Assembly: GCA_023230485.1 (NCBI GenBank) | Contig: JALNXG010000007.1 | Span: 813 to 64,812 of the forward strand | Direction of reading: 5' to 3' | DNA: 64,000 bases | Source of the DNA: Melioribacteraceae bacterium | Lineage (GTDB): Bacteria; Bacteroidota; Ignavibacteria; Ignavibacteriales; Melioribacteraceae | Shown here: piece after piece, positions 34,306 to 49,438 of the stretch | Layout: each line of letters begins with the position of its first letter | Numbering within the stretch: position 1 is the stretch's first letter | Position numbers and translations under genes: made by a program | The notes under the pieces: generated by a model | Databases searched by the model: none | Told to the model about the DNA's origin: nothing | The model's input: the letters and a program-made list of their open reading frames with translations, nothing else

Positions 34306-34432
34306 ACATAAGGAAAGATTAGCAAATAGTATAATCGTTTCTCACTATTAGGAATATTTAGTATTAAATAACAAAAAAGGACAAAGAAGTTGCAAAAAGC
34401 TTTAAAAACAGAGCAAAAACAAATTAAGACAT

Positions 34433-34486: not shown

Positions 34487-34978
34487 ATGCACAATCATAT
34501 TTTTGAAAATTACGCTCCCGGAGAGAGAAGCAGTTTAATCGCTCTTTTGCAGGACGTCCAAGAAATTTATGGCTATTTACCTGAAGAAGCATTAAGAGAC
34601 ATTTCAGATTTTATAAAAGTACCTTTAAGCGGTATTTACGGAGTAGCAACTTTCTATAATCAATTCCGCTTGAAACCTTTAGGAAAAAATGTTATTAGAG
34701 TTTGCAGAGGAACTGCATGCCATGTAAAAAATTCTGCGAATATTCTTATGGCTTTAGAGTTGGAATTAGGTGTTAAAGCCGGAGATACTACCAGAGATAA
34801 ACTTTTTACTTTAGAAACAGTGGCATGTATCGGAGCTTGTAGTATTGCACCCGTAGTTAATATCAATCAAGAATATTTCGGAAGAGTTACGGTTAAAGAA
34901 ATTCCTAAAATTCTTAAAAAATATCGTCAAGAAGAAGCATTGAAATCGAAGTCAGAACAATCCGTGAGTGTAGAATGA
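34487..34978 (+). CDS. hydC: NuoE-like [2Fe-2S] subunit of HydABC-type hydrogenase (set 1)
   Basis: 163 aa with the thioredoxin-like [2Fe-2S] motifs CRGTACH and CIGACSIAP. Confidence 0.88.
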   Translation: MHNHIFENYAPGERSSLIALLQDVQEIYGYLPEEALRDISDFIKVPLSGIYGVATFYNQFRLKPLGKNVIRVCRGTACHVKNSANILMALELELGVKAGDTTRDKLFTLETVACIGACSIAPVVNINQEYFGRVTVKEIPKILKKYRQEEALKSKSEQSVSVE

Positions 34979-36960
34979 AAAATTTTATAGAAACCTGCTG
35001 TAATGAATGTTGGCATTCTAATGAAAATCCATGCGAACAGTTTGTGCTTTGCTGCACAGAGGGTCCACTTTGTCATCAGAATCCTGAATGTAAAGAGAAA
35101 TTTCAAAATCTAAATAAAGAACTACTTTATCAAAAACATGATATCCCTGTTATTTTTATCGGCATGGGAACTTGCGGACTTGCATCTGGTGCAGAAAAAG
35201 TTAAAGAAGCAATCGAAGCTGAACTTACAAAATTAAATATAGAAGCTCGAATAGTCCCAACCGGTTGTATCGGTTTTTGTGCTAGAGAAGTGATTGTTGA
35301 TATAAAAATTCCAAATGAAAAAAGAATTGCTTATTGTGAAGTTACACCAAAAGATGTTCCTGAGCTTATCAAAACAGCTATACTTGAAAAGAAAATTCTT
35401 GATAGAAAATTCCTTGGTATTCATGGAGAAGGAGATGTAGGTCATATTTGTATTGATCAAGTCCCGTTTTTCAAACGTCAGCATAAAATTGTTTTAGAAA
35501 AATGCGGTATTATTAATCCTGATTCTATTGATGAATATATTGCAAATGGCGGATTCAAAGCATTAGATAAAGCACTCAGAATAATGACGCCCGAAACTGT
35601 TGTAAAAGAAGTAAAAGATAGTGGACTTAGAGGTAGAGGGGGTGGAGGTTTCCCTACCGGTATGAAATGGGAAATTGCTCTTAAACAAAAAAATAATAAA
35701 AAATATATTATATGTAATGCAGATGAAGGTGATCCCGGTGCATTTATGGATCGTTCAGTTTTAGAGAGCGACCCTTATAAAATGGTCGAAGGTATTATGA
35801 TTGCCGCTTATGCAATTGGTGCTTCTTCGGGTTATGTTTACTGCCGTGCTGAATATCCGTTAGCCATCAAAAGAATATTGAATGCAATAGCTAAATGTAA
35901 AGAATATGGTCTTCTTGGTAATAATATTCTTGGAACAGATTTTTCATTCGAGCTAAAGATAAAAAAAGGTGCTGGTGCATTTGTATGCGGTGAAGAAACT
36001 GCATTAATTGCATCAATCGAAGGCAAGAGAGGAATGCCTAAACCACGTCCTCCTTACCCATCAATTTCAGGTTTATTTAATAAACCAACTGTTATCAATA
36101 ATGTTGAAACATTTGCAAATGTTACATCGATTATTAATAGGGGTGCCGGTTGGTTAAATTCAATCGGTACTAAAGCTAGCAAGGGCACTAAAGTATTCGC
36201 ACTTAGCGGTAACGTTAAATATAGCGGCTTAGTTGAAGTGCCAATGGGCGTTACCTTGCGGGAGGTAGTATTCGATATCGCCGGTGGAATTCCTGATGGA
36301 AAGAATTTCAAGGCAGTTCAAATTGGCGGTCCTTCGGGTGGATGTTTACCTGAATCTGTTATGGACACTGAAATTGATTATGAATCTTTGAAAAGCGTTG
36401 GTGCTATGATGGGGTCTGGCGGATTCGTAATCATGGATGAAGATACTTGTATGGTTGATGTAGCTAAATATTTCTTGAATTTTATTAAAGATGAATCATG
36501 CGGTAAATGCGTCCCATGTAGAGAAGGAACTAAACGTTTATTAGAAATTATTGAAAGAATCCCTACTGCATATTCTGAAAAAACTAATAAACTTGAACAG
36601 CTTCAAAGATTCAAAGGCATTATGCACATGCAAAGATTGGCTGATGTAATTAAAGACACTTCTCTTTGTGGTCTAGGACAGACTGCCCCGAATCCAATTC
36701 TCTCCGGTCTAAGATATTTCAGAGATGAATATGAAGAACATTTATATGAAAGACATTGTAAAGCCGGCGTTTGTAAAGAACTTTTAACCTATACAATTGA
36801 TAATGATATCTGTTCCGGATGTGGACTTTGCGCTAAGAAATGTTCTGTCGAAGCAATTGTAGGCGATAAAAAGATGCCTCATTATATTGTTCAAGAAAAA
36901 TGTATCAAATGCGGAATGTGTGTAGAAACTTGCCGATTTGAAGCTATTACAGTTAATTAA
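34975..36960 (+). CDS. hydB: NuoF-like FMN/NAD(P)H-binding Fe-S subunit (set 1, long form)
   Basis: 661 aa. In order: a Cys-rich leader, a [2Fe-2S] thioredoxin-like domain (GTCGLASG...GCIGFC), GRGGGGFPTGMKW, CNADEGDPGAF, ESCGKCVPCR, and two C-terminal CxxCxxCxxxC motifs. Confidence 0.9.
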   Translation: MKNFIETCCNECWHSNENPCEQFVLCCTEGPLCHQNPECKEKFQNLNKELLYQKHDIPVIFIGMGTCGLASGAEKVKEAIEAELTKLNIEARIVPTGCIGFCAREVIVDIKIPNEKRIAYCEVTPKDVPELIKTAILEKKILDRKFLGIHGEGDVGHICIDQVPFFKRQHKIVLEKCGIINPDSIDEYIANGGFKALDKALRIMTPETVVKEVKDSGLRGRGGGGFPTGMKWEIALKQKNNKKYIICNADEGDPGAFMDRSVLESDPYKMVEGIMIAAYAIGASSGYVYCRAEYPLAIKRILNAIAKCKEYGLLGNNILGTDFSFELKIKKGAGAFVCGEETALIASIEGKRGMPKPRPPYPSISGLFNKPTVINNVETFANVTSIINRGAGWLNSIGTKASKGTKVFALSGNVKYSGLVEVPMGVTLREVVFDIAGGIPDGKNFKAVQIGGPSGGCLPESVMDTEIDYESLKSVGAMMGSGGFVIMDEDTCMVDVAKYFLNFIKDESCGKCVPCREGTKRLLEIIERIPTAYSEKTNKLEQLQRFKGIMHMQRLADVIKDTSLCGLGQTAPNPILSGLRYFRDEYEEHLYERHCKAGVCKELLTYTIDNDICSGCGLCAKKCSVEAIVGDKKMPHYIVQEKCIKCGMCVETCRFEAITVN

Positions 36961-36982
36961 TTTGAAACCGGAGATAGAAAAA

Positions 36983-38713
36983 ATGTTAGAATTAACGATA
37001 AATAATATAAAAGTAAAAGCTGAAGAGGGGATGACGATTTTAGATGCAGCAAAATCAGTCGGTATTAATATTCCCACTTTATGCCATATGAAAGATTTGT
37101 TCCCAACCGGTGCATGTAGAATTTGCGTTGTAGAAGTCGATGGAATGCGCGGTTTAACTCCATCTTGTGCTTATCCGGTTATGGAAGGTATGAAAGTTCA
37201 AACAAATACTCCAAGAGTTAGAATTGCAAGAAAAACTATTGTAGAATTATTAATTGAAAACCATCCACAGGATTGTTTGGTTTGTGTCAGAAATAAAAAT
37301 TGCGAATTACAAGATTTGTCTGAGACCTATAACGTAAGAGAACATAGATACTGCGGCGAGAAAAAAGAACACGCAATTGATATTTCAAGTGCTTCTATGG
37401 AAAGAGATCCTGCTAAATGTATCCTTTGTGGTAGATGTGTTAGAATGTGCGGAGAAATTCAGAAAATCGGTGCTATTGATTTTACAAATAGAGGTTTTTA
37501 TAGCACCGTTACTACTCCATACAATATCGGATTAAACGTAAGTGATTGTATTCTTTGCGGTCAATGCATCCTTGTATGCCCTACTGCTGCTCTTAGAGAG
37601 AAAAGTAGTTCAAAAGAAGTAATGAATGCAATAACGGATAAAAAGAAATTTACCGTTGTTCAAGTAGCTCCTGCTGTTAGAGCATCTATCGGTGAAGAAT
37701 ATAATTTACCTCTTGGAACAAATGCAACCGGACAATTAGTAACAGGATTGAAACGACTTGGATTTGATAAAGTATTCGATACTAACTTTGCAGCCGATCT
37801 TACGATTATGGAAGAAGCATCCGAATTAATTAATAGAGTGAGCAATGGCGGAACATTACCAATGTTTACAAGTTGCTGCCCGGGCTGGGTTAAATATATC
37901 GAACAAAACAGTCCTGAATTACTCCCTCACGTTTCTACGTGTAAATCTCCTCATGAAATGGAAGGCGCAGTTCTAAAAACATACTATGCAAAAAAAATGG
38001 GATTGAAACCGGAAGAAATTTATGTAGTTTCTATAATGCCATGTACAGTTAAGAAATTCGAATCGGGGAGAGCAGAACTTTCTGAAGATAAATTACAGGA
38101 TGTAGATGCAGTTCTTACAACAAGAGAATTAGTACGATTATTCAAAGCTGCTGGAATTGATTTTAATGATCTACCGGAAGATAAATTTGATAATCCGCTT
38201 GGTGATTCTACAGGTGCTGCTGCAATATTCGGTACTTCAGGCGGTGTAATGGAAGCAGCTCTTAGAACTGCTTATTTCAAACTTACAGGAACCGAATTAG
38301 ATAATTTAGCTCTAGAAGATATGCGAGGCAATGATGGATTAAAAGCATCTACTATCGATATAAATGGTCTAGAAGTTAGAGTAGCTGTTGTTAATGGTAT
38401 TGGAAATGTCGGACCGGTTTTAGAAGAGATAAAGAATGGTACTTCTAGATATCATTTTGTAGAAGTTATGGCATGCCCCGGCGGTTGTATTAATGGCGGC
38501 GGGCAACCAATTCATCAAAAACCGGAAAAAGTGAAAAAACGTATTCAAGCTCTATATGAGATTGATTCGAAAATGAAAAATAGACGTTCGCATGAAAATG
38601 AGTCAGTTCAAAAACTATATAAAGAATTTTTAATAGAACCAAATAGTCATGTAGCTCATGAAGTACTACATACTACTTATGTAGATAGAAAAAAGATTCT
38701 AAGTAAAAAATGA
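36983..38713 (+). CDS. hydA: [FeFe]-hydrogenase catalytic subunit (M3-type, set 1)
   Basis: Canonical H-cluster motifs FTSCCPGW, MPCTVKKFE and EVMACPGGCINGGGQP. N-terminal [2Fe-2S], HPQDCLVC and 2x[4Fe-4S] domains. I chose the start at 36983 (GGAGA RBS); the ORF track starts at 36938. Confidence 0.93.
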   Translation: MLELTINNIKVKAEEGMTILDAAKSVGINIPTLCHMKDLFPTGACRICVVEVDGMRGLTPSCAYPVMEGMKVQTNTPRVRIARKTIVELLIENHPQDCLVCVRNKNCELQDLSETYNVREHRYCGEKKEHAIDISSASMERDPAKCILCGRCVRMCGEIQKIGAIDFTNRGFYSTVTTPYNIGLNVSDCILCGQCILVCPTAALREKSSSKEVMNAITDKKKFTVVQVAPAVRASIGEEYNLPLGTNATGQLVTGLKRLGFDKVFDTNFAADLTIMEEASELINRVSNGGTLPMFTSCCPGWVKYIEQNSPELLPHVSTCKSPHEMEGAVLKTYYAKKMGLKPEEIYVVSIMPCTVKKFESGRAELSEDKLQDVDAVLTTRELVRLFKAAGIDFNDLPEDKFDNPLGDSTGAAAIFGTSGGVMEAALRTAYFKLTGTELDNLALEDMRGNDGLKASTIDINGLEVRVAVVNGIGNVGPVLEEIKNGTSRYHFVEVMACPGGCINGGGQPIHQKPEKVKKRIQALYEIDSKMKNRRSHENESVQKLYKEFLIEPNSHVAHEVLHTTYVDRKKILSKK

Positions 38714-40686
38714 CAGGTATTGTAACCACGATACGACAACGATGCAGAAGATGTTATTCCTGCGTCAGAGAATGTCCTGCACAAGCCATTAAGGTAATTA
38801 ATGGTCAAGCAGTGGTAATCGAAGAACGCTGTATCGTGTGTGGGCATTGTGTTACTGTATGTTCACAAAATGCTAAACAAGTAGTAAATGATAAAGAATT
38901 AGTATTGAAACAGATATTGTCAAGCGGAAAGGCAGTAGCTATAATCGCTCCTTCCTTTCCTGTTTCTTTCCCTGATCACCACGAAAAGTTGGTTGGTGGA
39001 TTAAAAGAAATTGGATTTTCTCATGTTTGTGAAACTTCCTTTGGCGCGGATTTAGTTAGTCAGCTTTATCCAAAGTTTATTGAAGCAAACAAAGATAAAA
39101 CAATTATTAGTTCGCCTTGTCCGGCAGTTACAAATTGGATTGAGAAATATTATGTAGATCTCATACCTAATATAGCGACAATTGTATCTCCTATGATTGC
39201 AATGGGGAGATACTTAAAACAAAAATTAGGTGAAAATTATAGTGTTGTCTTTATTGGACCCTGTATTGCTAAGAAGAGTGAATATAAAGATGAAGAAGTG
39301 GCAGGTGATATTGATGCAGTACTGACGTTTGTAGAATTGCATGAGATATTCGAAGAATTAAGAATCGACTTAAATAAGTGTGATGAGATACCATTTGATC
39401 CTCCTTTTGCCAATATGGGTAAAACATATCCATTAACAGGCGGTTTACTTAAATCTTCTGAACTTTCAAATGATATCCTTCAGAATGATATTCTAGTAGT
39501 TGAAGGAAAAAAGAATGTAAAAAAAGTTATTCAGGAAATTAGCAACCAAAAAGTAAAAGCAAAATTTGTCGATATATTGTTTTGTGAAGGTTGCATAAAT
39601 GGACCTGCGGCAGGAAGTGATCTAGATAACTATTCACGCAAAATTAAAGTTGTTGATTACATAAACGAACACATTAATAATGTTGATAAAGCGGTTTGGA
39701 AAAGTGAGATATATAATAGCAGAGATTTGGATCTAACTAGAAGCTTTGATAATAAAAATCAAAGAAGACCTATGCCTTCCGAAGAAGAGATTAAAAAAAT
39801 TCTTGCTCAAACTGAAAAATATTTAGTTACAGATGAACTTAATTGTGGTTCTTGCGGATATCCCACTTGCAGAGAATATGCTATTGCAATTGCTAAAGGA
39901 TTAGCCGAAGAAGATATGTGTCTTCCTTATTTAATTGAAAAACTGGAAGACGCTAATAGAGAATTAAAAGAAACACAAGCACAATTACATAGTGCTGAAA
40001 AGTTAGCTTCTATTGGTCAGCTCGCAGCAGGTGTTGCTCATGAAATAAATAATCCGCTCGGTACAATTATGCTTTATGCTTCTATGATGAAACGTAAAAT
40101 GGAAAAAACTAATTGTTCTGAACAAAATAGCGAAGACCTTCAGTTAATAGTTGAAGAAGCAACTCGTTGTAAGAATATTGTAGCTAATTTATTGAACTTC
40201 GCTCGTCAAGGTAAAATAAAATTATCTACAATTAAATTAAATGATTTGATAACTAATATCGTCTCTGCTATTAAGATTAATCCAGAAAATTCTGATATAA
40301 TTATTAATCTTCACGATAATACAGAAGGTGCTATTATCGAAGGGGATTCAGATCAACTTAAACAAGTATTTCTTAATGTGCTTAATAATTCAGTTGAAGC
40401 TTTAGACGCAAGCTCAATAAAAAATATCACAATAAATATCGATCAAAATGAAGAAAGTATTATAACAAATATTATTGATACAGGTGTAGGTATTCCAGAA
40501 GAGAATATAAATAAACTTTTTACACCCTTCTTCACTACTAAAAAAATGGGTAAAGGTACTGGTTTAGGCTTAGCAATTACTTATGGAATTGTTAAAATGC
40601 ATAAGGGTGATATAACTGTAAAAACGATTTTAGGTAAAGGAAGTGATTTTAAAATCAAATTGCCAAAAATATTAATTAAAAAATAA
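38710..40686 (+). CDS. HydS-like putative sensory [FeFe]-hydrogenase domain fused to a histidine kinase
   Basis: 658 aa. The ATG overlaps the hydA1 stop (ATGA). Two CxxCxxCxxxC motifs sit at the N-terminus. The H-domain is degenerate but Cys-complete (SSPCPAV C137, GPCIAKKSE C185, FCEGC C292/C295). An extra motif C379-x2-C382-x4-C387-x16-C404 follows. The kinase part has the HisKA H-box AHEINNPL (His444) and HATPase_c boxes (DTGVGIP, GTGLGLAI). Confidence 0.85.
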   Translation: MTGIVTTIRQRCRRCYSCVRECPAQAIKVINGQAVVIEERCIVCGHCVTVCSQNAKQVVNDKELVLKQILSSGKAVAIIAPSFPVSFPDHHEKLVGGLKEIGFSHVCETSFGADLVSQLYPKFIEANKDKTIISSPCPAVTNWIEKYYVDLIPNIATIVSPMIAMGRYLKQKLGENYSVVFIGPCIAKKSEYKDEEVAGDIDAVLTFVELHEIFEELRIDLNKCDEIPFDPPFANMGKTYPLTGGLLKSSELSNDILQNDILVVEGKKNVKKVIQEISNQKVKAKFVDILFCEGCINGPAAGSDLDNYSRKIKVVDYINEHINNVDKAVWKSEIYNSRDLDLTRSFDNKNQRRPMPSEEEIKKILAQTEKYLVTDELNCGSCGYPTCREYAIAIAKGLAEEDMCLPYLIEKLEDANRELKETQAQLHSAEKLASIGQLAAGVAHEINNPLGTIMLYASMMKRKMEKTNCSEQNSEDLQLIVEEATRCKNIVANLLNFARQGKIKLSTIKLNDLITNIVSAIKINPENSDIIINLHDNTEGAIIEGDSDQLKQVFLNVLNNSVEALDASSIKNITINIDQNEESIITNIIDTGVGIPEENINKLFTPFFTTKKMGKGTGLGLAITYGIVKMHKGDITVKTILGKGSDFKIKLPKILIKK

Positions 40687-40707: not shown

Positions 40708-41115
40708 ATGGATTTATTGGTAAAAAAAATATTACTTGTGGATGATGATATCGATTTATTAGAACAAAATAAGTTAATCCTTGAGAATAAAGGATTTCAG
40801 GTAGTTACTGGTGAATCTGGGTCTGAAGGATGGAGTTTATTTCAGAAAGAAAAACCTGATGCCTGTATTGTCGATTTAATTATGGAGCAGATGGATTCAG
40901 GCTTTGTATTAACTCACCGAATTAAGAAAACTGAACATGGGAAAAATATTCCTGTTTTTATTCTTACTTCTGCCACATACGAAACAGGATTTAAATTCAG
41001 TGCTTCTACAAGCGAAGAAAGAGAATGGATTAAATGTGATGGTATTCTTCATAAACCTGTCGTAGTTGAAGAATTGATCACTAAATTGGAAAATTTTAAC
41101 CCAAAGACGAATTAA
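40708..41115 (+). CDS. Single-domain response regulator (receiver only)
   Basis: 135 aa. Acidic pocket DDD, phospho-acceptor context IVDLIM, then LTS and HKP. No output domain. Confidence 0.85.
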   Translation: MDLLVKKILLVDDDIDLLEQNKLILENKGFQVVTGESGSEGWSLFQKEKPDACIVDLIMEQMDSGFVLTHRIKKTEHGKNIPVFILTSATYETGFKFSASTSEEREWIKCDGILHKPVVVEELITKLENFNPKTN

Positions 41116-41119
41116 TAAA

Positions 41120-42601
41120 TTGAATGAAACAAAAGGAAAAATTTTAGTTGTCGATGATGAAAAAGGATTAAGGATTGGAACGCAAAGATTATTAGAAGAT
41201 GAGAATTTTACAGTAGATACTGCGGAAAATGGTGAACAGGGAATTAGTCTTGGTGTTGCTTCCGATTACGACTTAGCAATAATCGACCTTAAAATGCCGG
41301 ATGTAGATGGACTTGAAGTGCTTAAGCAAATCAAGTCCGTACATCCAAACACAATCTGTTTTATAGCTACTGCTTATGCAAGCTATGAAACGGCAATAGA
41401 ATCCACTCGCCTTGGCGCATATGGCTATATACCAAAACCTTTCACTCCCGATGAATTAATTTATCAAGTTGAACAAGGATTTAGACAACGGCAATTAGTT
41501 GTTGAATCTGAACTTCTTAAAAAAGAACGCGATGAAAATCTTATCGAAATTGCTTCAGAAAAATCACGACTAAATACAATAATTAAAGCAATTAGCGATG
41601 GCGTCCTAGTAATTAATAGAATAGGTGAGTTAGTTTATTTTAATACAGCCGCCTTAAAATATTTTGATCTCGATTCACTTTCAATAGGAGATTCTGCTCT
41701 TATACATTTACCCGCTCCTATTGTAGAGATTATTAAAAAGATTTATAGCCCCGATCAAGCACTTCAAAAAACATATAGCATACAATTAGAATTAAAATCC
41801 AATAATGAATTATTTGTTGAATCTACATGCACTCCAATACTTCAAAATGACAAATCGATTGCAGGAGTTGTAGTAGTAATCAAAAATATCACTGAATTTA
41901 AAAAGATCGAGTTAATTAAATCTCAATTCGTTTCTATGGTAGCTCACGAACTAAAAACCCCTATGGCTGCAGTTCAAGGATTCTTGAATATTATCCTAGA
42001 TGATTCTATTAGCATTCCTTATGATACTCAACGCGATTATTTAGTAAGGTCAGTTATTCGCCTAAAAAGTTTGACTGATCTAGTAAATGACCTTTTAGAT
42101 ATCTCAAGAATGGAATTAAAGACAAAGCAGAGAGAAATAACGGAAATTAAGCTCGATGAGATAGTCCAATCAGTTTCACAAATGCTAGAATTAGAACTCA
42201 AGAAAAAAGGTGTTACATTAATTACTCATTATGAAGAACCAATTCCAACTATTAAAGCGGATGCTAATGAAATCAACAGAATATTTACCAATCTCATTAG
42301 CAATGCAATAAAGTATAATAAAGACAAAGGGAAAATTGATATCAGTATTTCCCATTCCGGCAGCTACGCAGTGATACAGATTAGCGATAGCGGAATAGGG
42401 ATGAAAACGGAAGAAAAAAATAGATTATTCCAGGAATTTTACAGAGCAAAAAATGAAAAGACCCGCGGCATCAGCGGTACCGGTCTCGGTCTTTCTATCG
42501 TAAAAAAAATAGTTGAATCTTATTATGGAAAAATAGAAGTCGAATCTGAATATGGTTCGGGTACGACATTTATAATCCATTTTCCAATAAATACTAACTA
42601 A
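41120..42601 (+). CDS. Hybrid sensor kinase: receiver-PAS-HisKA-HATPase_c
   Basis: 493 aa, TTG start. Receiver (VVDDE...IIDLKMPDVDG...PKP), a PAS-like middle region, H-box VAHELKTPMAAV and GTGLGLSIVKK. Confidence 0.85.
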   Translation: MNETKGKILVVDDEKGLRIGTQRLLEDENFTVDTAENGEQGISLGVASDYDLAIIDLKMPDVDGLEVLKQIKSVHPNTICFIATAYASYETAIESTRLGAYGYIPKPFTPDELIYQVEQGFRQRQLVVESELLKKERDENLIEIASEKSRLNTIIKAISDGVLVINRIGELVYFNTAALKYFDLDSLSIGDSALIHLPAPIVEIIKKIYSPDQALQKTYSIQLELKSNNELFVESTCTPILQNDKSIAGVVVVIKNITEFKKIELIKSQFVSMVAHELKTPMAAVQGFLNIILDDSISIPYDTQRDYLVRSVIRLKSLTDLVNDLLDISRMELKTKQREITEIKLDEIVQSVSQMLELELKKKGVTLITHYEEPIPTIKADANEINRIFTNLISNAIKYNKDKGKIDISISHSGSYAVIQISDSGIGMKTEEKNRLFQEFYRAKNEKTRGISGTGLGLSIVKKIVESYYGKIEVESEYGSGTTFIIHFPINTN

Positions 42602-42616
42602 AAAGGGGAAATAACT

Positions 42617-42988
42617 ATGGCTCTTATCGCTATTATCGATGATGATCCGGATATTCTCGATGCAAGCTCTTTGGTACTAAAATCTAAAGGATTTGATGTC
42701 GTTACAGCAACTAACCCGGTCGATGGTTACGACATCGTAACAAAAAGGAATCCAAATCTGATTATACTAGATGTAATGATGGATGAACCTGATGACGGCT
42801 TTTTCTTGGCACAGAAATTCAGGAAAAACGGAATCACTACACCAATTTTAATGTACACTTCAGTATCGAAAGCCATTGGTTTAGAATTTGGCAAAAGTGA
42901 TATGGTACCTGTCGATGATTTTGTCGAAAAACCAATCTCACCTGAAGAATTAGTCAAAAAAGTTGAAAGTTTATTGCAGAAAAAATAG
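42617..42988 (+). CDS. Single-domain response regulator (receiver only)
   Basis: 123 aa with IIDDDPD, ILDVMM, YTS and EKP. No output domain. Paralogous in layout to the regulator at 40708. Confidence 0.85.
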   Translation: MALIAIIDDDPDILDASSLVLKSKGFDVVTATNPVDGYDIVTKRNPNLIILDVMMDEPDDGFFLAQKFRKNGITTPILMYTSVSKAIGLEFGKSDMVPVDDFVEKPISPEELVKKVESLLQKK

Positions 42989-42999
42989 GAGGAAATTAA

Positions 43000-43473
43000 A
43001 TGCTTATTCTCGAAAAAAATGCAATGACTGAAGAAATTGAAAAGCTTGTAGAGAAATACGGACCTGAAAGGTCGTCTTTACTTCCAATTCTTCAAGACAT
43101 TCAACGAGATCACAAATCAATACCCGATTTTGCTCAACAAGAAGTAGCTCGTTTGTTAGATATTCATCCTGTTGAAGTTTTTAGTGTCATTTCATTTTAC
43201 GCATTTCTTAATACCGAAGCTAAAGGTAAATTCATCGTTCGTCTTTGTCGGACAATTACTTGCGATATTAAAGGTAAAGAAAGAATTGCACAAGCAATTG
43301 AACGTGAACTCGGTATTACTTTTGGTGAAACAACGAAAGATAATAAATACACATTAGAATATGCTAACTGCCTTGGAATGTGTGATCAAGGACCGGCTAT
43401 GTTAATTAATGATATCGTTTATGCAAATCTAACACCCGAAAAAGCAGTCAAAATTCTTAAGGGGGTTAAATGA
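43000..43473 (+). CDS. hydC: NuoE-like [2Fe-2S] subunit (set 2)
   Basis: 157 aa with CRTITCD and CLGMCDQGPA. Confidence 0.85.
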   Translation: MLILEKNAMTEEIEKLVEKYGPERSSLLPILQDIQRDHKSIPDFAQQEVARLLDIHPVEVFSVISFYAFLNTEAKGKFIVRLCRTITCDIKGKERIAQAIERELGITFGETTKDNKYTLEYANCLGMCDQGPAMLINDIVYANLTPEKAVKILKGVK

Positions 43474-44672
43474 TTATGGAAAAGACAAAAAGAGAAGGTT
43501 CAGTAATATTCTCTGAATATAAAAGAGGCGAAGGAATAAAAGCCGCTTTGGGTAAAAAGCGTGAAGATATTCTTTTAGAACTTCGTGAATCTAAAATTAA
43601 AGGTAGAGGCGGCGCAGGATTCCCAACTGCTACGAAATGGATGGTTGTAGCGGCTTCTACTGCTGAAATCAAATATGTTATATGTAACGCCGATGAAGGG
43701 GAACCTGGTACATTCAAAGACCGTGTGCTTTTAGTCGATTATCCTGAATTAGTTTTTGACGGTATGGTGATTGCGGGATATACAATCGGTGCTTCAAGGG
43801 GTATCGTTTATCTTCGTGGTGAATATGAATATGTAAGAAAACCATTAGAAGATTATTTAGAATCAATGAGAAAAGATAATTTGCTCGGGAATAACATTCT
43901 CGGTAAAGATGGATTCGATTTTGATATAACTATAAGAATGGGCTCTGGCGCATATATATGCGGCGAAGAAACCGCTTTAATTGAATCATTAGAAGGTAAT
44001 AGAGGAGAAGCTCGTAATAAGCCTCCTTACCCTGTAAATACAGGATTTTTTGGACGACCTACTGTTGTAAATAATGTTGAAACTTTAGCTGCTGTTTCTC
44101 ATATTTTAGTTAAAGGTGGCGATTGGTTTAGACAACATGGTACGGATAAATCTACCGGCTCTAAATTATTTTCTATTTCCGGCGATTGCGAAAAACCGGG
44201 TGTTTATGAATTACCTTGGGGCACTAAACTTTCGGAAATTCTTTTCCTTGTAGGTGCTAAAAATACTAAAGCAATTCAGGTTGGCGGTGCTTCCGGAATA
44301 TGTCTTAATAAAACTCAGTTCGATAGAACTTTAGCTTATGAAGATGCGGCAACAGGCGGCTCGATTATGATTTTTAATGAATCGAGAAATATGATTCACA
44401 TTCTTAAAAATTTCATGGAGTTTTTTGTTGAAGAATCTTGTGGTCAATGTACACCTTGTAGAATCGGTAATGTCAAATTACTCGAGGGTGTGAAAATGAT
44501 TCAATCAGGTGAATATACTTTCGATTATATCGAAAAGTTAATCGATCTTGGTAGAACAATGCAAGTAGCGTCTAAATGCGGTTTAGGTCAATCTTCTCCA
44601 AATCCGTTTATCTCGATTTTAGAAAACTTTAAAGATGAAATATTCAATGGAAACGGAGGATATAATGGATAG
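43470..44672 (+). CDS. hydB: NuoF-like FMN/NAD(P)H-binding subunit (set 2, short form)
   Basis: 400 aa with GRGGAGFPTATKW, CNADEGEPGTF and ESCGQCTPCR. It lacks the N-terminal [2Fe-2S] domain and the C-terminal ferredoxin domains present in set 1. Confidence 0.85.
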   Translation: MIMEKTKREGSVIFSEYKRGEGIKAALGKKREDILLELRESKIKGRGGAGFPTATKWMVVAASTAEIKYVICNADEGEPGTFKDRVLLVDYPELVFDGMVIAGYTIGASRGIVYLRGEYEYVRKPLEDYLESMRKDNLLGNNILGKDGFDFDITIRMGSGAYICGEETALIESLEGNRGEARNKPPYPVNTGFFGRPTVVNNVETLAAVSHILVKGGDWFRQHGTDKSTGSKLFSISGDCEKPGVYELPWGTKLSEILFLVGAKNTKAIQVGGASGICLNKTQFDRTLAYEDAATGGSIMIFNESRNMIHILKNFMEFFVEESCGQCTPCRIGNVKLLEGVKMIQSGEYTFDYIEKLIDLGRTMQVASKCGLGQSSPNPFISILENFKDEIFNGNGGYNG

Positions 44673-46584
44673 TAGAAAAGATTATAGAGCACCATTAAGT
44701 CAACAGCCACTGACAATCGAAAAGCCAACTGACCTTACTGCGATTGGCGGGACTATCACCGTTGAAATTAATGAAAAGAAAGTTGTTGTTCCATTAGGGA
44801 CTACAATTTTAGATGCATGTAAAATGGCAGGAATTAGTATCCCTACTTTATGCCATCATGAAGACCTTTGCATTGCAGGTGTTTGTCGTATATGCGTTGT
44901 TGAAGTCGAAGGAATGAGAACTCTACAAGCTTCTTGTGCCTTTCCAATTACAGCACCAATAAAAATAAAAACTTCTACACCTATGGTACGTAAAGCAAGA
45001 AGACATATTATTGACTTAATGCTAAGTGAACACTATGGCGAATGTTATTCTTGCGTCAGAAATGGTAACTGCGAATTACAGAATTTAGCTAAAGAGTATG
45101 GAGTAGATGGTTATACTTTTGGACATGTTGATAAACCACGCTATGAAATTGATCGCTCTTCTTATGCTGTTATTAGAGATATGAGTAAATGTATCTTATG
45201 TAAAAGATGTGTTAGAACTTGTATCGATCTTCAAGAAGTCGGTGTACTTGAATCAATAGGAAGGGGAGACATGACTCATATTTCCACTTTCTTAGAGAAA
45301 CCACTTTCAGACGTAATCTGTATTAATTGCGGTCAGTGTATTAATAGATGTCCCACTGCCGCTCTTAGAGCAAATGATCCATCTGATGAAATCTGGAGAG
45401 CAATTGACGATCCGAAAAAACACGTAGTAATTCAAACTGCACCATCACCTAGAGCTGCGATATGCGAAGAATTTGGAATGGAAGCAGGTACTTCTTTAAC
45501 TCAAGAGCTTAATACTGCATTAAAAAGAATTGGCTTCGATAAAGTATTTGATACCAATTTTACTGCAGATTTAACAATTATCGAAGAAGGCACTGAATTA
45601 ATAATTCGACTATACAAAGCATTAGTTGGTAAAGATGCTTCCGTTAGTCTTCCACAATTCACCTCATGCTCACCTGGATGGGTAAAATACTTAGAACATT
45701 ATTATCCTGAATATCTCGATAATCTAAGTAGTGCTAAATCACCTCAACAAATGTTCGGTTCACTTATTAAAACTTTTTATGCACAAAAGAATGGCGTTAA
45801 TCCTGAAGATATTGTTTCTGTTGCATTAATGCCTTGCTCAGCTAAAAAGTTTGAATGTAACCGTCCTGAAATGGCTGATTCTGGTTATAAAGACGTTGAC
45901 TATGGTCTTACAACACGCGAAATGGCAAAGATGATTAAGGAAGCAGGTATTAATCTCCCTGAAATGCCGAAATCACATTTCGATGATCCATTTGGTGAAG
46001 CTTCAGGTGCTGGATTAATTTTCGGAGCTACCGGCGGTGTTATGGAAGCTGCTATTAGAACAATAGTTGAGTTTATTACAGGTGCTAAAGCAGAAGATAT
46101 TTTTGCAAATGCAAACGTTGTTGATGTACGTGGATTTGATGGTATAAAATATATGGAAATTCCTCTTGGTGATAAATTTGGTCCTGTACCCGGTTTAATT
46201 GCTCATCTTGTTCCTAATTGGGATTGGCTCAAAGGTGCTACTCTTAAAGTTGCTGTAGCACACGGTACTGCGAATGCCAAAAAAGTAATGGATGATATTA
46301 AGGCAGGCGGTAAGTTTAGCGAGTGCCATTTTATAGAATTTATGGCATGCCCAGGCGGATGTCTTGGAGGTGGTGGTCAACCGATCCCAACAACTCCTGA
46401 AATTCGTATGAAACGCGCTCAAGCTATATATGCCGAAGATGAATCGCTTGAATTAAGAAAATCTCATGAGAATCCTCACATTACTAAGATTTATGAAGAG
46501 TTCTTAACCGAAGGTCCTTGTAGTCATTTATCGCACAAATTATTACATACACACTACGTAAAACGCGGTAAATATATTATTTAA
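44665..46584 (+). CDS. hydA: [FeFe]-hydrogenase catalytic-type subunit (set 2) with a variant L1 motif
   Basis: H-cluster motifs FTSCSPGW (variant), MPCSAKKFE and EFMACPGGCLGGGGQP. Same N-terminal Fe-S domain set as HydA1. I chose the start at 44665 (GGAGGA RBS); the ORF track starts at 44635. Confidence 0.9.
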   Translation: MDSRKDYRAPLSQQPLTIEKPTDLTAIGGTITVEINEKKVVVPLGTTILDACKMAGISIPTLCHHEDLCIAGVCRICVVEVEGMRTLQASCAFPITAPIKIKTSTPMVRKARRHIIDLMLSEHYGECYSCVRNGNCELQNLAKEYGVDGYTFGHVDKPRYEIDRSSYAVIRDMSKCILCKRCVRTCIDLQEVGVLESIGRGDMTHISTFLEKPLSDVICINCGQCINRCPTAALRANDPSDEIWRAIDDPKKHVVIQTAPSPRAAICEEFGMEAGTSLTQELNTALKRIGFDKVFDTNFTADLTIIEEGTELIIRLYKALVGKDASVSLPQFTSCSPGWVKYLEHYYPEYLDNLSSAKSPQQMFGSLIKTFYAQKNGVNPEDIVSVALMPCSAKKFECNRPEMADSGYKDVDYGLTTREMAKMIKEAGINLPEMPKSHFDDPFGEASGAGLIFGATGGVMEAAIRTIVEFITGAKAEDIFANANVVDVRGFDGIKYMEIPLGDKFGPVPGLIAHLVPNWDWLKGATLKVAVAHGTANAKKVMDDIKAGGKFSECHFIEFMACPGGCLGGGGQPIPTTPEIRMKRAQAIYAEDESLELRKSHENPHITKIYEEFLTEGPCSHLSHKLLHTHYVKRGKYII

Positions 46585-46594
46585 TTCATTTAGG

Positions 46595-46630
46595 GTCTTA
46601 GCAGTCAATTGGCTGCTAAGATTTATTTTA
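46595..46630 (+). terminator. Rho-independent terminator after hydA2
   Basis: Stem (T)CTTAGCAG at 46596-46604, loop TCAATTGG, CTGCTAAG(A) at 46613-46621, followed by TTTATTTTA. Confidence 0.7.
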
Positions 46631-47994
46631 TGCTGCTAATACCTAAATATGTTCAAATATATGAAGAGTATTTCAAGACGATTAAGCGTTATAACGCTTG
46701 GTTTGTTGAATTACGTTTCGCTGCTATTTTAGCTCTTATAGCCCTTCTTATTCTATTAAATATTTTACCTGATGTTCTTTTATCATTTTTTCAGAACATT
46801 TCGGTAATCATTATAATTATTTTTATTACTTCTTATAATTACTATTTCCAAAAACTCATAAGATTAAAAAAGAAAGATGAACAAGTAATTCTTTCACTCT
46901 ATCAGATTATTGTTGATCTATTTTCATTAAGTATTCTTATTTATGTGTTAGGGGGAATTGAAGCTCCTATTTTTCTTTTTTATATTTTTCACATGATCAT
47001 CGGAAGTTTAATACTTCCTGCTGGTATGATGTACGTTTTAGCAGCTATTTGCCTATTGATCTTTGTTACCTTTAGTTCTCTTGAATTAATGGGAACAATC
47101 CCACATCAAAATATTATTGGACTATTTAATTTTGAGTTTTATAATAATCTAAATTATCTTCTTGTATTTCTAAGTATATTCGCATCGCTAGTATTCATCT
47201 CAATATTTATCACCTCGAAGATTGTAAAAGATTTATATGAAAGAGAACAGCAATTAAAGCGGGCATTAGATGATCTACATCAAGCAGAAAAATCTAAACA
47301 AAAATATGTAGCAGCAGTAGTTCACGAATTAAAATCACCAATCTCAGCAGCAAGTTCAATCTTAGATTTAATACTCGGTGATTATCTAGGTGAAGTTAGT
47401 CAATTAGTTAAAGATAAAATATCACGTGCCAAAGAAAGAATAAACGAATCAATTCAAATGATAAATAATATGGTCCGTTTCTCTCGGTTTAGGCTATTGA
47501 ATAAAATTGAAATCGAACATGTTAATCTATCTGAAATGATAAGAAAATATATCCTTTCAATTAATCCATTAGCTGAGAAGAAAAATATAACGATTAATTT
47601 TAATCAGAAACAGAAGGATGATGTACATTTAAATTGCGATAGAAATCTTTTTGAATTAGTTTTTTCAAATCTGTTTAATAACGGAATCAAGTATAATAAT
47701 CCGAATGGGGAATTGCTGATTGAACTTTCAACTAAAGATGATTTATTGACAATAGAAATCTCCGATACAGGCATAGGTATTCCGAAATCTGATAAAGAAA
47801 AAATCTTCGAAGAATATTATCGCGCTTCTAACGTAATGCAAGTTGAGGGAACGGGAACCGGTTTGAACATAGTTAAAAGTATCATCGAGAATCATGATGG
47901 ATCAATAATATTTTATTCTCCATCTAAAATTAGTTCTGCAATTGGGGTTGGTACAACTTTCATTATCGAATTAAAACAAAACATTTTACTTTAA
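46630..47994 (+). CDS. Polytopic membrane histidine kinase (paralog 1)
   Basis: About six N-terminal TM segments, H-box VVHELKSPISAA, and HATPase_c (DTGIGIP, GTGTGLNIV). The start is set at MLLIPKY by analogy with the paralog. The TTG at 46609 on the track lies inside the terminator hairpin. Confidence 0.85.
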   Translation: MLLIPKYVQIYEEYFKTIKRYNAWFVELRFAAILALIALLILLNILPDVLLSFFQNISVIIIIIFITSYNYYFQKLIRLKKKDEQVILSLYQIIVDLFSLSILIYVLGGIEAPIFLFYIFHMIIGSLILPAGMMYVLAAICLLIFVTFSSLELMGTIPHQNIIGLFNFEFYNNLNYLLVFLSIFASLVFISIFITSKIVKDLYEREQQLKRALDDLHQAEKSKQKYVAAVVHELKSPISAASSILDLILGDYLGEVSQLVKDKISRAKERINESIQMINNMVRFSRFRLLNKIEIEHVNLSEMIRKYILSINPLAEKKNITINFNQKQKDDVHLNCDRNLFELVFSNLFNNGIKYNNPNGELLIELSTKDDLLTIEISDTGIGIPKSDKEKIFEEYYRASNVMQVEGTGTGLNIVKSIIENHDGSIIFYSPSKISSAIGVGTTFIIELKQNILL

Positions 47995-48046
47995 TTAAAT
48001 CTCTTTCTATATTTAAATAAGATTACCACAATAATCGGAATACGTT

Positions 48047-49438
48047 ATGCTTATAATTATTCCTAAGTGGGCAACAAATTACAATGAATTTTGGAAGTCT
48101 GTTATTCAGCGTAATTTTTGGTTTATAAAGTTGCGATATGCGGCTGTAGTAATTCTTTTACTATTTTTATTGGCTGGTCAATTTATACTCGGTTTTAAGT
48201 TCTCATCTGCACAAACTTATGCAATCTCTTTTACCGCAATTTCAATTCTATTATATAATATTGCTCTCCATTCAATTAAAAATAATGTAACTTGTAATCC
48301 TGAAGGTTTTAATTGCCTTCATCTATCTCTCATACAAATGATTTTAGATTTGACTGCCTTGATGGTATTAGTTTACTATACCGGTATTATTGATTCACCT
48401 CTCTATATGTTTTTTATATTCCACATGGTAATTGGAAGTATGATTCTTCCTGGATATATAATGTATTTATCCGCCTCTGTTGTTGTAATAGTATTCTCAA
48501 TTCTCGTTTTTATGCAGAATTTTGGAATGATAGATAATAATATTATAGTAGGATTATATGCTTACCCTCGTCCCCATAAATTAATATTCGGGCTAATTTT
48601 CATTACTATATTCGCCATGATGCTTTTTATAAGTATAATGCTCGCTAATACGATAGCAAACAAACTATATATGCGAGAGCAAGAATTACAAGATTCAGTT
48701 GATAGATTAGGTGAAGCAGAAAAATCAAAACAGAAATATGTACTTGGTTTAGTGCATGAAATTAAATCTCCACTTACAGCAATTCGTTCAATATTGGACC
48801 TTGTACTCAATCAATATTTAGGTAAAGTAGAAAATGATGTTATGGATAAATTAGAACGTGCCCGAATTAGGACGAATGAAGCTATTAATTTAATAAACAA
48901 TGTAATTAGAATGGCAAAACTCAGATTATTGGATATAAAACAGATTGAAGTTTTTGATGTACTTGATACAATTGAACAAGTATTGAAATCCACTAAAGAA
49001 CTTTGCGATTCGAAGGATGTTAAAATTGAATTAATAGATAATAGAAACGACAAACCATTTATTGATTTTGATAAGCTTTTATTTCACCTTGCAATATCCA
49101 ATCTCATTTGTAACGCAATTAAGTATAATCAGATGCAAGGGATAATCAAAATATATTTAAAGAATATTGAAAATGGTTTACAAATAAAAGTAATTGACAA
49201 TGGGATAGGTATCGAACAACAAGATATTGAAAGAATTTATAAAGAATATATTAGAGCAAAAGATTTTAATAATAAAACTGAAAGTAGTGGTCTGGGACTT
49301 ACCTTGGTAAATGAAATAATGAAACAGCATCATGGTTCTATGGAAATTATTAGTCCATCTGAAATAGGAGAACCTGAACATCCAGGTACTGAAGTAAGGC
49401 TAATAATACCAATAATTAATGGAGTTCATGATGATTAA
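48047..49438 (+). CDS. Polytopic membrane histidine kinase (paralog 2)
   Basis: 463 aa with the same layout as 46630-47994. H-box LVHEIKSPLTAI, DNGIGIE and SSGLGLTLV. Confidence 0.85.
   Translation: MLIIIPKWATNYNEFWKSVIQRNFWFIKLRYAAVVILLLFLLAGQFILGFKFSSAQTYAISFTAISILLYNIALHSIKNNVTCNPEGFNCLHLSLIQMILDLTALMVLVYYTGIIDSPLYMFFIFHMVIGSMILPGYIMYLSASVVVIVFSILVFMQNFGMIDNNIIVGLYAYPRPHKLIFGLIFITIFAMMLFISIMLANTIANKLYMREQELQDSVDRLGEAEKSKQKYVLGLVHEIKSPLTAIRSILDLVLNQYLGKVENDVMDKLERARIRTNEAINLINNVIRMAKLRLLDIKQIEVFDVLDTIEQVLKSTKELCDSKDVKIELIDNRNDKPFIDFDKLLFHLAISNLICNAIKYNQMQGIIKIYLKNIENGLQIKVIDNGIGIEQQDIERIYKEYIRAKDFNNKTESSGLGLTLVNEIMKQHHGSMEIISPSEIGEPEHPGTEVRLIIPIINGVHDD

What the first reader, a model, noticed from the sequence alone, without database searches (positions are those of the whole stretch)
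40708..42988. Phosphorelay with three receiver domains and no output domain
Seen:
- Three genes follow the HydS-like kinase: a 135-aa receiver, a receiver-PAS-HisKA-HATPase hybrid, and a 123-aa receiver.
- All three receivers keep the acidic pocket, the phospho-Asp context (IVDLIM, IIDLKM, ILDVMM), the T/S residue and the K-P.
- None has a DNA-binding, enzymatic or other output domain.
- The two single-domain receivers share an unusual insertion of about 20 residues between the T/S and K positions (SATYETGFKFSASTSEEREWIKCDG and SVSKAIGLEFGKSDMVPVDD).
- The only DNA-binding regulator in the window is the frameshifted NtrC-type gene about 12 kb away.

Inference, two alternatives:
- It is a multistep or branched relay whose output is protein-protein interaction, possibly with the hydrogenase subunits encoded on either side.
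- The output regulator is unlinked.
Basis: partly seen in the sequence, partly recalled or inferred. Interest (0 to 1): 0.6.

Follow-up and report, generated by a model that had tools for sequence, protein, structure and literature searches.

The report
Output-less receivers in hydrogen-sensor cassette
Between two hydrogenase gene sets lie a hydrogen-sensor kinase, a second kinase and three phosphate-receiving domains that lack any output part; this cassette is conserved across a whole bacterial phylum, and its gene-switching output must be encoded elsewhere, because the hydrogenase genes carry a promoter type that needs a separate activator protein.

Summary
The three genes exist as described. 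All three receivers keep the catalytic residues and none has an output domain. The "about 20-residue insertion" is wrong. RR2 is only 2 residues longer than a PhoP receiver, and RR1 about 7 longer, as a loop before a shortened helix 4. No Hpt domain is present, so this is a kinase cascade or multi-kinase network, not a canonical phosphorelay.

The cassette is conserved in gene order across about 100 Ignavibacteriales loci. A core version (HydS-kinase, receiver, receiver-kinase, plus receivers before hydC) recurs in 8 of 8 other Bacteroidota loci. No DNA-binding regulator is consistently adjacent.

New here:
- A sigma-54-type -24/-12 promoter with a palindromic upstream site stands before hydC1. 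It also stands before RR2-hydC2 wherever that module lies apart. Transcriptional output therefore needs an unlinked activator, which I could not identify.
- Natural variants show two modules: RR1 travels with the receiver-PAS-kinase, and RR2 travels with hydC2B2A2 and kinase HK4.

The scan has noted the same cassette in other genomes. I found no paper that describes the receivers. I class it as a new variant of a known kind, of moderate interest.

The parts
34339..34354 (+). Palindromic upstream site TTCTCACTATTAGGAA (consensus TTCYYA-N4-TARGAA), the presumed binding site of an enhancer-binding protein
   Evidence: Read directly. Found about 85-90 bp upstream of the -24 element in 55 of 91 hydC1 upstream regions. 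The same motif stands before RR2 in split loci.
34433..34447 (+). Sigma-54-type -24/-12 promoter-like element TGGCATACAATATGA, 54 nt before the hydC1 start
   Evidence: The element matches TGGCAY-N6-TG and lies at -15 to -66 in 66 of 91 loci. Only 143 such matches occur on both strands of the 4.04-Mb genome. rpoN is present.
34487..38713 (+). hydC1 (34487-34978), hydB1 (34975-36960) and hydA1 (36938-38713): NuoE-like, long NuoF-like and group A [FeFe] hydrogenase subunits
   Evidence: Pfam and NCBIfam. HydA1 matches NF040763 with 870 bits.
38710..40686 (+). HydS-type sensory [FeFe]-hydrogenase domain fused to HisKA/HATPase_c. Phospho-His H444 lies in the box HEINNPL.
   Evidence: The L2 motif reads GPCIAKKSE and there is no TSCCP motif. 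The kinase core matches AtoS (202 bits) and ZraS (174 bits) best.
40708..41115 (+). RR1, a stand-alone receiver of 135 aa. It has D56, T87, K116, an atypical strand-4/helix-4 loop and no aromatic switch residue (I113).
41120..42601 (+). Receiver-PAS-HisKA-HATPase_c kinase. Receiver D55; phospho-His H276 lies in the box HELKTPM.
   Evidence: The receiver matches NtrC and AtoC best. The kinase core matches PnpS, PhoR and WalK best.
42617..42988 (+). RR2, a stand-alone receiver of 123 aa (D52, T81, F102, K105) with an OmpR-family-like receiver sequence
43000..46584 (+). hydC2 (43000-43473), hydB2 (43470-44672, a minimal 400-aa form) and hydA2 (44635-46584, with TSCSPGW in place of TSCCPGW)
46593..46624 (+). 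The only strong intrinsic-terminator-like hairpin of the unit (14-bp stem followed by a T run)
46609..49438 (+). HK3 (46609-47994) and HK4 (48047-49438): membrane histidine kinases with no adjacent regulator. HK4 travels with RR2-hydC2B2A2 in split loci.

Best explanation
The three receivers belong to a conserved multi-kinase signalling cassette that accompanies the HydS-kinase hydrogen or redox sensor and HydABC hydrogenases. It is a kinase cascade or network, not a His-Asp-His-Asp relay.

Shown:
- The architecture and its conservation.
- The absence of Hpt and of output domains.
- A sigma-54-type promoter plus upstream palindrome in front of hydC1, and in front of RR2-hydC2 where that module lies apart.
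- Two evolutionary modules: RR1 with the receiver-PAS-kinase, and RR2 with hydC2B2A2 and HK4.

Inferred wiring:
1. HydS-HK is an NtrB/AtoS-type kinase. It phosphorylates the NtrC-like N-terminal receiver of the receiver-PAS-kinase and so sets that kinase's activity.
2. The receiver-PAS-kinase is PhoR/WalK-type. Together with HK4 and HK3 it phosphorylates the paralogous stand-alone receivers RR1 and RR2.
3. RR1 and RR2 have no output of their own. They act as diffusible modulators, either by binding a partner or by competing for phosphate.
4. Transcription of both hydrogenase operons is finally switched by an unlinked sigma-54 enhancer-binding protein that binds TTCYYA-N4-TARGAA.
For: - Domain content and the lack of Hpt or output domains.
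- Operon structure: junctions of 4-21 nt with ribosome-binding sites and a single strong terminator after hydA2.
- Conservation: the full gene order occurs in most of about 100 Ignavibacteriales loci from four families. RR1 is 60-80% and RR2 64-82% identical, more than the kinases at 57-67%.
- Restriction to the order: RR1 and RR2 orthologues were found only in this order among 300 genomes sampled from the phylum.
- Core cassette elsewhere: REC(s)-HydCBA-HydS_HK-REC-REC_HK occurs in 8 of 8 loci of other Bacteroidota. The RR1 signature TxETGxxF...WIKxD is retained there.
- Promoter and upstream site. rpoN and about 22 activators.
- Modules from natural variants.
- Family affinities that fit the proposed kinase-receiver pairs. 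At helix-1 specificity positions RR1 has D-L-Q-L-I and RR2 has D-I-A-L-V, which are alike, whereas the hybrid receiver has G-L-G-R-L (read).
- In the cultured relative Melioribacter roseus, both flanking hydrogenases (MROS_2480-2482, 2487-2488) were detected only in fermentative cells, which shows regulated expression (PMC5492636).
Against: - No phosphotransfer has been measured. Pairings rest on family-level similarity and gene order, which are weak predictors.
- Variants that lack HydS-HK but keep RR1 and the receiver-PAS-kinase (G010, G019, L050-L061) show that the sensor is dispensable for the rest. Step 1 is therefore not obligatory.
- The activator was not identified. Six candidates failed or were inconclusive on phyletic pattern.
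- The -12 element is TG followed by a variable base rather than a strict TGC.
- The Bacteroidales versions lack the sigma-54 motif, so the output route is not universal.
- Helix-4 conservation is above the protein's average in RR1 (0.85 against 0.76) but not in RR2 (0.77 against 0.82). A conserved partner surface is therefore not demonstrated.
Confidence: 0.5

Rival explanations
1. RR1 and RR2 are post-translational regulators of the enzymes. In their phosphorylated form they bind HydABC1 and HydABC2 (or their NuoF-like or NuoE-like subunits) and switch activity or direction. The system would then control enzymes directly, and transcription would be controlled separately.
For: - RR2 is the first gene of the hydC2B2A2 operon wherever that operon stands alone.
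- A stand-alone receiver also precedes hydC in all 8 loci from other Bacteroidota.
- RR1 directly follows hydA1 in variants that lack HydS-HK.
- Both receivers are more conserved than the kinases.
- RR1 has an atypical, family-specific helix-4 face and no aromatic switch residue.
Against: - In G019, RR2 persists next to HK4 although hydC2B2A2 is gone.
- Co-transcription with target genes is equally expected for an autoregulated signalling system.
- No interaction data or co-fold was obtainable with these tools.
- I know of no precedent for a receiver binding a hydrogenase (own knowledge).
Confidence: 0.17
2. The stand-alone receivers are phosphate sinks or buffers. They drain phosphoryl groups from the kinases, as CheY1 does in Sinorhizobium or LovR in Caulobacter, and thereby tune an unlinked NtrC-type regulator that is the true partner of HydS-HK. 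They have no binding target of their own.
For: - There are four kinases but only three receivers, none with an output.
- The HydS-HK core is of the type that pairs with NtrC-family regulators (JGI names).
- A sigma-54 promoter implies such a regulator.
- An orphan REC-AAA-HTH regulator with no adjacent kinase is present in 38 of 40 relatives.
Against: - A sink needs only the active site and the kinase-docking face. Yet the RR1 helix-4 signature is conserved from Ignavibacteria to Bacteroidales.
- The orphan regulator is also kept by G036, a genome without the cassette. It sits in a housekeeping-looking operon.
- RR1 and RR2 have been kept as two distinct paralogues across the order.
Confidence: 0.18
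3. RR1 and RR2 are CheY-like motility regulators, as some databases name them. They would couple hydrogen sensing to flagellar or gliding behaviour.
For: - JGI labels many orthologues 'CheY-like chemotaxis protein'.
- Fold matches include CheY4 and RR468.
- Ignavibacterium album is flagellated (title of PMC3362086).
Against: - No CheA, CheW or MCP gene lies in any of the loci examined.
- The matches are generic receiver matches.
- Synteny is strictly with hydrogenase genes.
Confidence: 0.04

Closest known systems
Kinase-linked group C [FeFe] 'sensory' hydrogenases: HydDB group C1 'histidine kinase-linked'; 'BfuT' with a histidine-kinase domain in sub-type V BfuABC clusters (PMC11406978); TmHydS and TamHydS as the studied sensors (PMC8163306)
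   Same: - A HydS-type H-domain with altered active-site motifs and a C-terminal four-Cys Fe-S motif, encoded next to bifurcating HydABC genes.
- Here the domain is fused to HisKA/HATPase_c.
- The literature treats these proteins as putative H2 sensors whose downstream signalling is unknown.
   Different: - The published descriptions stop at the sensor.
- PMC11406978 does not contain the words 'response regulator'.
- The finding concerns the receivers and second kinase behind the sensor, which I did not find described in the papers searched.
[NiFe] regulatory hydrogenase pathway HoxBC/HupUV - HoxJ/HupT - HoxA/HupR of Cupriavidus necator and Rhodobacter capsulatus (own knowledge; PMC10073562 for the system)
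   Same: - The logic is a hydrogenase-type H2 sensor, then a histidine kinase, then control of hydrogenase operons.
- In C. necator the output is an NtrC-family activator at sigma-54 promoters. Sigma-54-type promoters stand before the hyd operons here.
   Different: - The sensor is [FeFe], not [NiFe], and is fused to the kinase.
- The cognate activator is not in the cluster.
- Three output-less receivers and a second kinase are interposed.
Four-component RedCDEF system of Myxococcus xanthus (own knowledge; Jagadeesan et al. 2009)
   Same: - One operon encodes two histidine kinases and receiver-only proteins with no output domain and no Hpt.
- Signalling runs by phosphate flow among kinases and receivers and ends in a single-domain receiver.
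   Different: - There is no dual-receiver protein here.
- One receiver is fused N-terminally to a kinase.
- Homology to the Red proteins was not tested.
- The input is a hydrogenase domain.
DivJ/PleC-DivK-DivL-CckA network of Caulobacter (own knowledge; the DivK structure 1m5t is among the fold matches)
   Same: A stand-alone receiver served by more than one kinase acts by binding and allosterically controlling another kinase rather than DNA.
   Different: - There is no sequence relationship beyond the receiver fold.
- There is no cell-cycle context.

Membership tests
Response regulator receiver domain (CheY-like, PF00072) | Pfam score above the gathering threshold | tested here: met
   60.1 bits (RR1), 96.4 bits (hybrid) and 70.3 bits (RR2), against a cut-off of 30.2.
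Response regulator receiver domain (CheY-like, PF00072) | Acidic pair, phospho-acceptor Asp, Thr/Ser and Lys of the active site | tested here: met
   All are present and invariant or nearly so in 16-20 orthologues each.
Response regulator receiver domain (CheY-like, PF00072) | (beta/alpha)5 fold | tested here: met
   The RR1 model has pLDDT 86.6. Its best PDB matches are receivers with TM about 0.73. Helix 4 is shortened and preceded by a low-confidence loop. RR2 was not modelled.
Response regulator receiver domain (CheY-like, PF00072) | Actual phosphorylation on the Asp | not testable with these tools
   This needs a biochemical assay.
Canonical multistep His-Asp-His-Asp phosphorelay | Hpt domain or Spo0B-like histidine phosphotransferase | tested here: not met
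   No Hpt (PF01627) or comparable hit in any of the 12 proteins of the unit.
Canonical multistep His-Asp-His-Asp phosphorelay | Hybrid kinase with the receiver C-terminal to the kinase core | tested here: not met
   The receiver is at residues 8-117 and the kinase core at 267-490.
Canonical multistep His-Asp-His-Asp phosphorelay | Terminal response regulator with an output domain | tested here: not met
   Both small proteins are receiver-only. None is adjacent in about 116 related loci.
Kinase-linked group C (HydS-type) sensory [FeFe] hydrogenase | H-domain with altered active-site or proton-path motifs, plus a C-terminal four-Cys Fe-S motif | tested here: met
   Fe_hyd_lg_C 194 bits and PF04060 42 bits. 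L2 reads GPCIAKKSE and there is no TSCCP motif, whereas HydA1 has TSCCPGW and MPCTVKKFE.
Kinase-linked group C (HydS-type) sensory [FeFe] hydrogenase | H2-dependent signalling | not testable with these tools
   No experiment was possible. The literature calls the function putative (PMC8163306).
Sigma-54-dependent operon with enhancer-binding activator | GG at -24 and TG(C) at -12 with canonical spacing, close upstream of the first gene | tested here: met
   TGGCATACAATATGA lies at 34433-34447 with 11 nt from G(-24) to G(-13). The element is conserved in 66 of 91 loci. The base after TG is variable.
Sigma-54-dependent operon with enhancer-binding activator | rpoN present in the genome | tested here: met
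   PF04552 hit of 189.5 bits on contig C52.
Sigma-54-dependent operon with enhancer-binding activator | Conserved upstream activator site | tested here: met
   The palindrome TTCYYA-N4-TARGAA lies about 86 bp upstream in 55 of 91 loci. It also stands before RR2 in five split loci.
Sigma-54-dependent operon with enhancer-binding activator | Identified cognate activator, and a transcription start that depends on sigma-54 | tested here: inconclusive
   About 22 activators are in the genome. Six were tested by phyletic pattern without a match. RNA data were not available.
CheY chemotaxis regulators (database label of orthologues) | Genomic association with cheA, cheW or MCP genes | tested here: not met
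   None in the window unit or in the related loci annotated.

The most novel reading that the evidence does not exclude
The stand-alone receivers are themselves the output. Phosphorylated RR1 and RR2 would bind the two HydABC complexes, or a receiver-less sigma-54 activator. A fused [FeFe] hydrogen sensor would then switch, protein to protein, between a full bifurcating hydrogenase and a minimal NADH-type one. That would be the first signalling route described for any sensory [FeFe] hydrogenase, and the first receiver known to regulate a hydrogenase directly.
Probability: 0.15. Interest if true: 0.8.

Novelty: new variant of a known kind. Interest (0 to 1): 0.5.

Why it matters
[quoted passage not shown] This cassette offers a concrete and complete set of candidates:
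- one sensor-kinase;
- one receiver-regulated kinase;
- two small receivers;
- from this work, the target promoter and its activator site.

The cassette occurs in cultured organisms (Melioribacter roseus MROS_2483-2486, Ignavibacterium album, Stygiobacter, Rosettibacter, PMC3534657). The pathway can therefore be tested with ordinary phosphotransfer and promoter assays.

The finding also shows that output-less receivers are a conserved, phylum-wide part of hydrogenase regulation and not a local loss of a regulator.

Tried and rejected
1. The 20-residue insertion is rejected by alignments to solved receivers and by the model.
2. An adjacent DNA-binding regulator lost locally is rejected. None is present in about 116 related loci, and an activator lies within the flanks in only 4.
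3. The hunt for the sigma-54 activator by phyletic pattern gave no match:
   - The C66 activator is restricted to two genera.
   - The GAF activators C45 and C41 and the PAS-PAS activator C3 are patchy, in 10-12 of 41 genomes.
   - C149 and C94 have orthologues in genomes without the cassette.
   - The orphan NtrC-type regulator on C130 is nearly universal but is also kept by the cassette-less G036 and lies in a housekeeping operon. It remains only a weak candidate.
4. A genome-wide search for the palindrome plus promoter found only the hyd site and one further site on C49. That site was not followed up.
5. The first RR1 model, built from 20 close orthologues, was poor (pLDDT 66.7). It was replaced by a 49-sequence alignment.
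6. The fold search gave only generic receivers.
7. Helix-4 conservation as evidence for a partner surface holds for RR1 but not for RR2.
9. My first ORF maps seemed to lack RR2 or hydB2 in some loci. tblastn showed this was an artefact of greedy ORF picking.
Full report
**What is there.**
The window comes from an Ignavibacteriales (Melioribacteraceae) metagenome-assembled genome of the same genus as 'bacterium BRH_c32'.

Coordinates 40708-42988 hold three co-directional genes:
- RR1, 135 aa;
- a 493-aa protein with Response_reg, PAS_9, HisKA and HATPase_c domains;
- RR2, 123 aa.

Pfam finds only a receiver domain in RR1 and RR2. NCBIfam adds no output domain. All three receivers keep the acidic pair, the acceptor Asp, the Thr and the Lys-Pro. 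These residues are invariant in 16-20 orthologues each.

The surrounding unit reads:
- hydC1-hydB1-hydA1;
- HydS-type hydrogenase domain fused to a histidine kinase;
- RR1, receiver-PAS-kinase, RR2;
- hydC2-hydB2-hydA2;
- two membrane kinases, HK3 and HK4.

Junctions inside the unit are 4-21 nt with ribosome-binding sites. The only strong terminator follows hydA2.

**The insertion claim.**
- RR2 aligns over its whole length with the PhoP receiver and has two extra residues there.
- RR1 is 7-8 residues longer than RpaA or 3t6k.
- A first RR1 model from 20 close orthologues was poor (pLDDT 66.7).
- A second model from a 49-sequence alignment that includes Bacteroidales relatives reached pLDDT 86.6. 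It shows a canonical receiver in which residues 88-101 form a low-confidence loop and helix 4 is cut to residues 102-107.
- Foldseek finds only generic receivers: RR468, RpaA, PorX, Spo0F, DivK and FrzS.

The two paralogues do share two features. One is an extra residue in the strand-3/helix-3 loop. The other is the lack of the usual Pro at D+4. They are each other's best match in the genome.

RR1 lacks the aromatic switch residue three positions before the Lys: I113, mostly aliphatic in orthologues. RR2 has an invariant Phe there and the hybrid receiver has a Tyr.

**Conservation.**
HydS-HK orthologues occur in 31 of 40 relatives from four families.

In 20 fetched loci the gene order is the same as in the window. 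No DNA-binding regulator is adjacent. A pattern scan of 185,579 species genomes found 241 RR1 relatives. Going by the record titles of the 80 loci kept, these are Ignavibacteria.

Across 116 loci the full 11-12-gene order dominates. RR1 and RR2 orthologues were found only in this order among 300 genomes sampled from the phylum.

One 43% RR1-like hit lay outside the order. It led to a wider family. I examined eight loci outside the order: seven found through HydS-kinase homologues, several of them titled Bacteroidales and one Saprospiraceae, plus G167. All eight have this order:
- one or two stand-alone receivers;
- HydC, HydB, HydA;
- HydS-HK;
- a receiver of about 131 aa;
- a receiver-HisKA-HATPase protein of about 373 aa;
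- in six of the eight, hydrogenase maturase genes (hydG, hydE or hydF) next.

The RR1 signature T(S/A)xTxETGxxF...(E/D)xxxWIKxD is retained across this distance. The receiver in front of hydC resembles RR2 but carries a real insert of about 35 residues in helix 4.

Output-less receivers are therefore an old and integral part of the cassette, not a local loss.

**Natural variants define modules.**
- In family f4 the unit is split. One locus holds hydC1B1A1-HydS_HK-RR1-receiver-PAS-kinase. Another holds RR2-hydC2B2A2-HK4.
- G009 has only the second module. G007 has a deletion scar.
- G010, G019 and a lineage represented by L050-L061 lack HydS-HK but keep RR1 and the receiver-PAS-kinase.
- L072 has RR1-receiver-PAS-kinase-RR2-hyd2 without HydS-HK and without hyd1.
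- G019 keeps RR2 next to HK4 although hydC2B2A2 is gone.

In all but two loci where both positions could be scored, RR1 and the receiver-PAS-kinase occur together; L113 is one of the two and has RR1 with no recognisable kinase after it. RR2 travels with hydC2 and HK4. The HydS-HK sensor is an accessory input.

**Output.**
Upstream of hydC1 the intergenic DNA is diverged except for two elements.
- TGGCAY-N6-TG lies at -15 to -66 from the called start (most sites at -40 to -66) in 66 of 91 loci. In the window it is TGGCATACAATATGA at 34433-34447.
- A palindrome TTCYYA-N4-TARGAA lies about 86 bp further upstream in 55 of 91 loci. In the window it is TTCTCACTATTAGGAA at 34339-34354.

Several of the apparent misses come from over-long ORF calls (compare).

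The same pair of elements stands in front of RR2 in the five loci where RR2-hydC2B2A2 is separate.

The -24/-12 spacing is canonical for sigma-54. Only 143 such matches exist on both strands of the 4.04-Mb genome. The combination with the palindrome occurs only here and at one other site.

The genome encodes rpoN and about 22 enhancer-binding proteins. An activator gene lies within 10 kb of the cassette in only 4 of 116 loci.

Transcription of both hydrogenase operons therefore most likely depends on an unlinked activator.

I tried to identify the activator by phyletic pattern, using five genomes of the order that lack the cassette and 40 relatives. All six candidates tested failed or were inconclusive. 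The best remaining candidate is an orphan REC-AAA-HTH regulator on contig C130. It is nearly universal in the order, but one cassette-less genome also retains it.

The non-Ignavibacteriales loci checked (four of the eight) have no sigma-54 motif. Five of the seven loci found through HydS-kinase homologues have a NarL-type two-component pair nearby.

**Likely wiring (inference).**
- HydS-HK has an NtrB-type H-box (HEINNPL). It matches AtoS and ZraS best. JGI labels orthologues as NtrC-family sensor kinases.
- The hybrid's receiver matches NtrC and AtoC best.
- The hybrid's kinase core has HELKTPM and matches PnpS, PhoR and WalK. HK3 and HK4 match PhoR and CreC.
- RR2 matches OmpR-family receivers.
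- At the helix-1 positions used for partner specificity, RR1 (D-L-Q-L-I) and RR2 (D-I-A-L-V) resemble each other. They differ from the hybrid receiver (G-L-G-R-L).

This fits the chain HydS-HK to hybrid receiver, then receiver-PAS-kinase (and HK4 or HK3) to RR1 and RR2.

No Hpt domain is present, so this is a kinase cascade or network rather than a phosphorelay.

What phospho-RR1 and phospho-RR2 then do is open. They may bind the activator, a kinase or the hydrogenases, or they may act as phosphate sinks.

Helix-4 conservation is above the protein's average for RR1 (0.85 against 0.76) but not for RR2 (0.77 against 0.82).

**Literature.**
- Kinase-linked group C hydrogenases are catalogued as putative sensors (PMC8542988, PMC11406978, PMC12578642).
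- The signalling route of sensory [FeFe] hydrogenases is stated to be open (PMC8163306).
- PMC11406978 describes the kinase-bearing 'BfuT' downstream of bfuA in Hydrogenedentota, Calditrichota and Bacteroidota. It never mentions response regulators.
- The M. roseus genome paper lists the flanking hydrogenases Mros2480-2482 and 2487-2488 without comment on the four genes between them.
- Proteomics detected those hydrogenases only in fermentative cells (PMC5492636).

Earlier notes of this scan record the same cassette in other genomes, including a spirochaete and a planctomycete. I treated them as leads only.

**Verdict.**
The 'unlinked regulator' alternative gains concrete support from the promoter architecture. 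'Phosphorelay' should be replaced by 'multi-kinase cascade with output-less receivers'.

The kind of system (two-component signalling behind a sensory hydrogenase) is known in outline. This particular conserved cassette and its receivers were not described in the papers I searched.

Noticed in passing
L138 (own genome contig C73, 4000-17934): A third hydrogenase locus: a long NuoF-like subunit, a HydA fused to a NuoE-like domain, a second HydS-type protein without a kinase (587 aa) and then a SpoIIE/PP2C phosphatase. This genome therefore has both a kinase-linked and a phosphatase-linked sensory hydrogenase.
   Followed up: partly
own genome contigs C11:22854-27776, C12:36862-42022, C18:31380-36122: Three more 'kinase - small stand-alone receiver - kinase' triads. 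One has a receiver-kinase-receiver protein. The HK-RR-HK layout is thus a recurrent signalling architecture in this organism.
   Followed up: no
L040:11081-14776 (G027): A 1231-aa C25-family peptidase with a T9SS sorting tail is inserted between the receiver-PAS-kinase and RR2. This splits the cassette without loss of RR2.
   Followed up: partly
L133:10208-11165 (G007): A deletion scar. hydC1 is followed directly by a 159-aa C-terminal fragment of the receiver-PAS-kinase and then by RR2-hydC2B2A2-HK4. The upstream sigma-54 element and palindrome are retained.
   Followed up: partly
own genome contig C49, around 16133-16211 (minus strand); L137:8384-9995: The only other place in the genome with a palindrome-like site plus a TGGCAC-type element. 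It lies upstream of an FNR-like NAD/FAD oxidoreductase, an Mrp/NUBPL Fe-S carrier ATPase and triosephosphate isomerase. It may be a second member of the regulon, or it may be chance.
   Followed up: partly
L139:3218-4579 (own genome contig C130): A complete REC-AAA-HTH (NtrC-type) regulator with no kinase gene nearby. It follows PrsW protease, a cytidylyltransferase and MeaB GTPase genes. Orthologues of 60-68% identity occur in 38 of 40 relatives.
   Followed up: partly
window 45661-45681 and 43470-44672: HydA2 has TSCSPGW where HydA1 has TSCCPGW. HydB2 is a minimal 400-aa NuoF-like subunit without the ferredoxin-type domains of HydB1. The second enzyme is probably not an ordinary bifurcating hydrogenase.
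   Followed up: partly
L150-L152, L154, L155 (Bacteroidota loci outside Ignavibacteriales): In five of seven loci, a Cache- or PAS-HisKA_3 kinase and/or a REC-GerE (NarL-type) regulator lies within a few kb of the cassette. It is a possible DNA-binding output in those lineages.
   Followed up: no
L098, L105, L063, L115: HydS-HK appears as two adjacent ORFs in four related loci. This could be a frameshift, a sequencing error or a genuine split.
   Followed up: no
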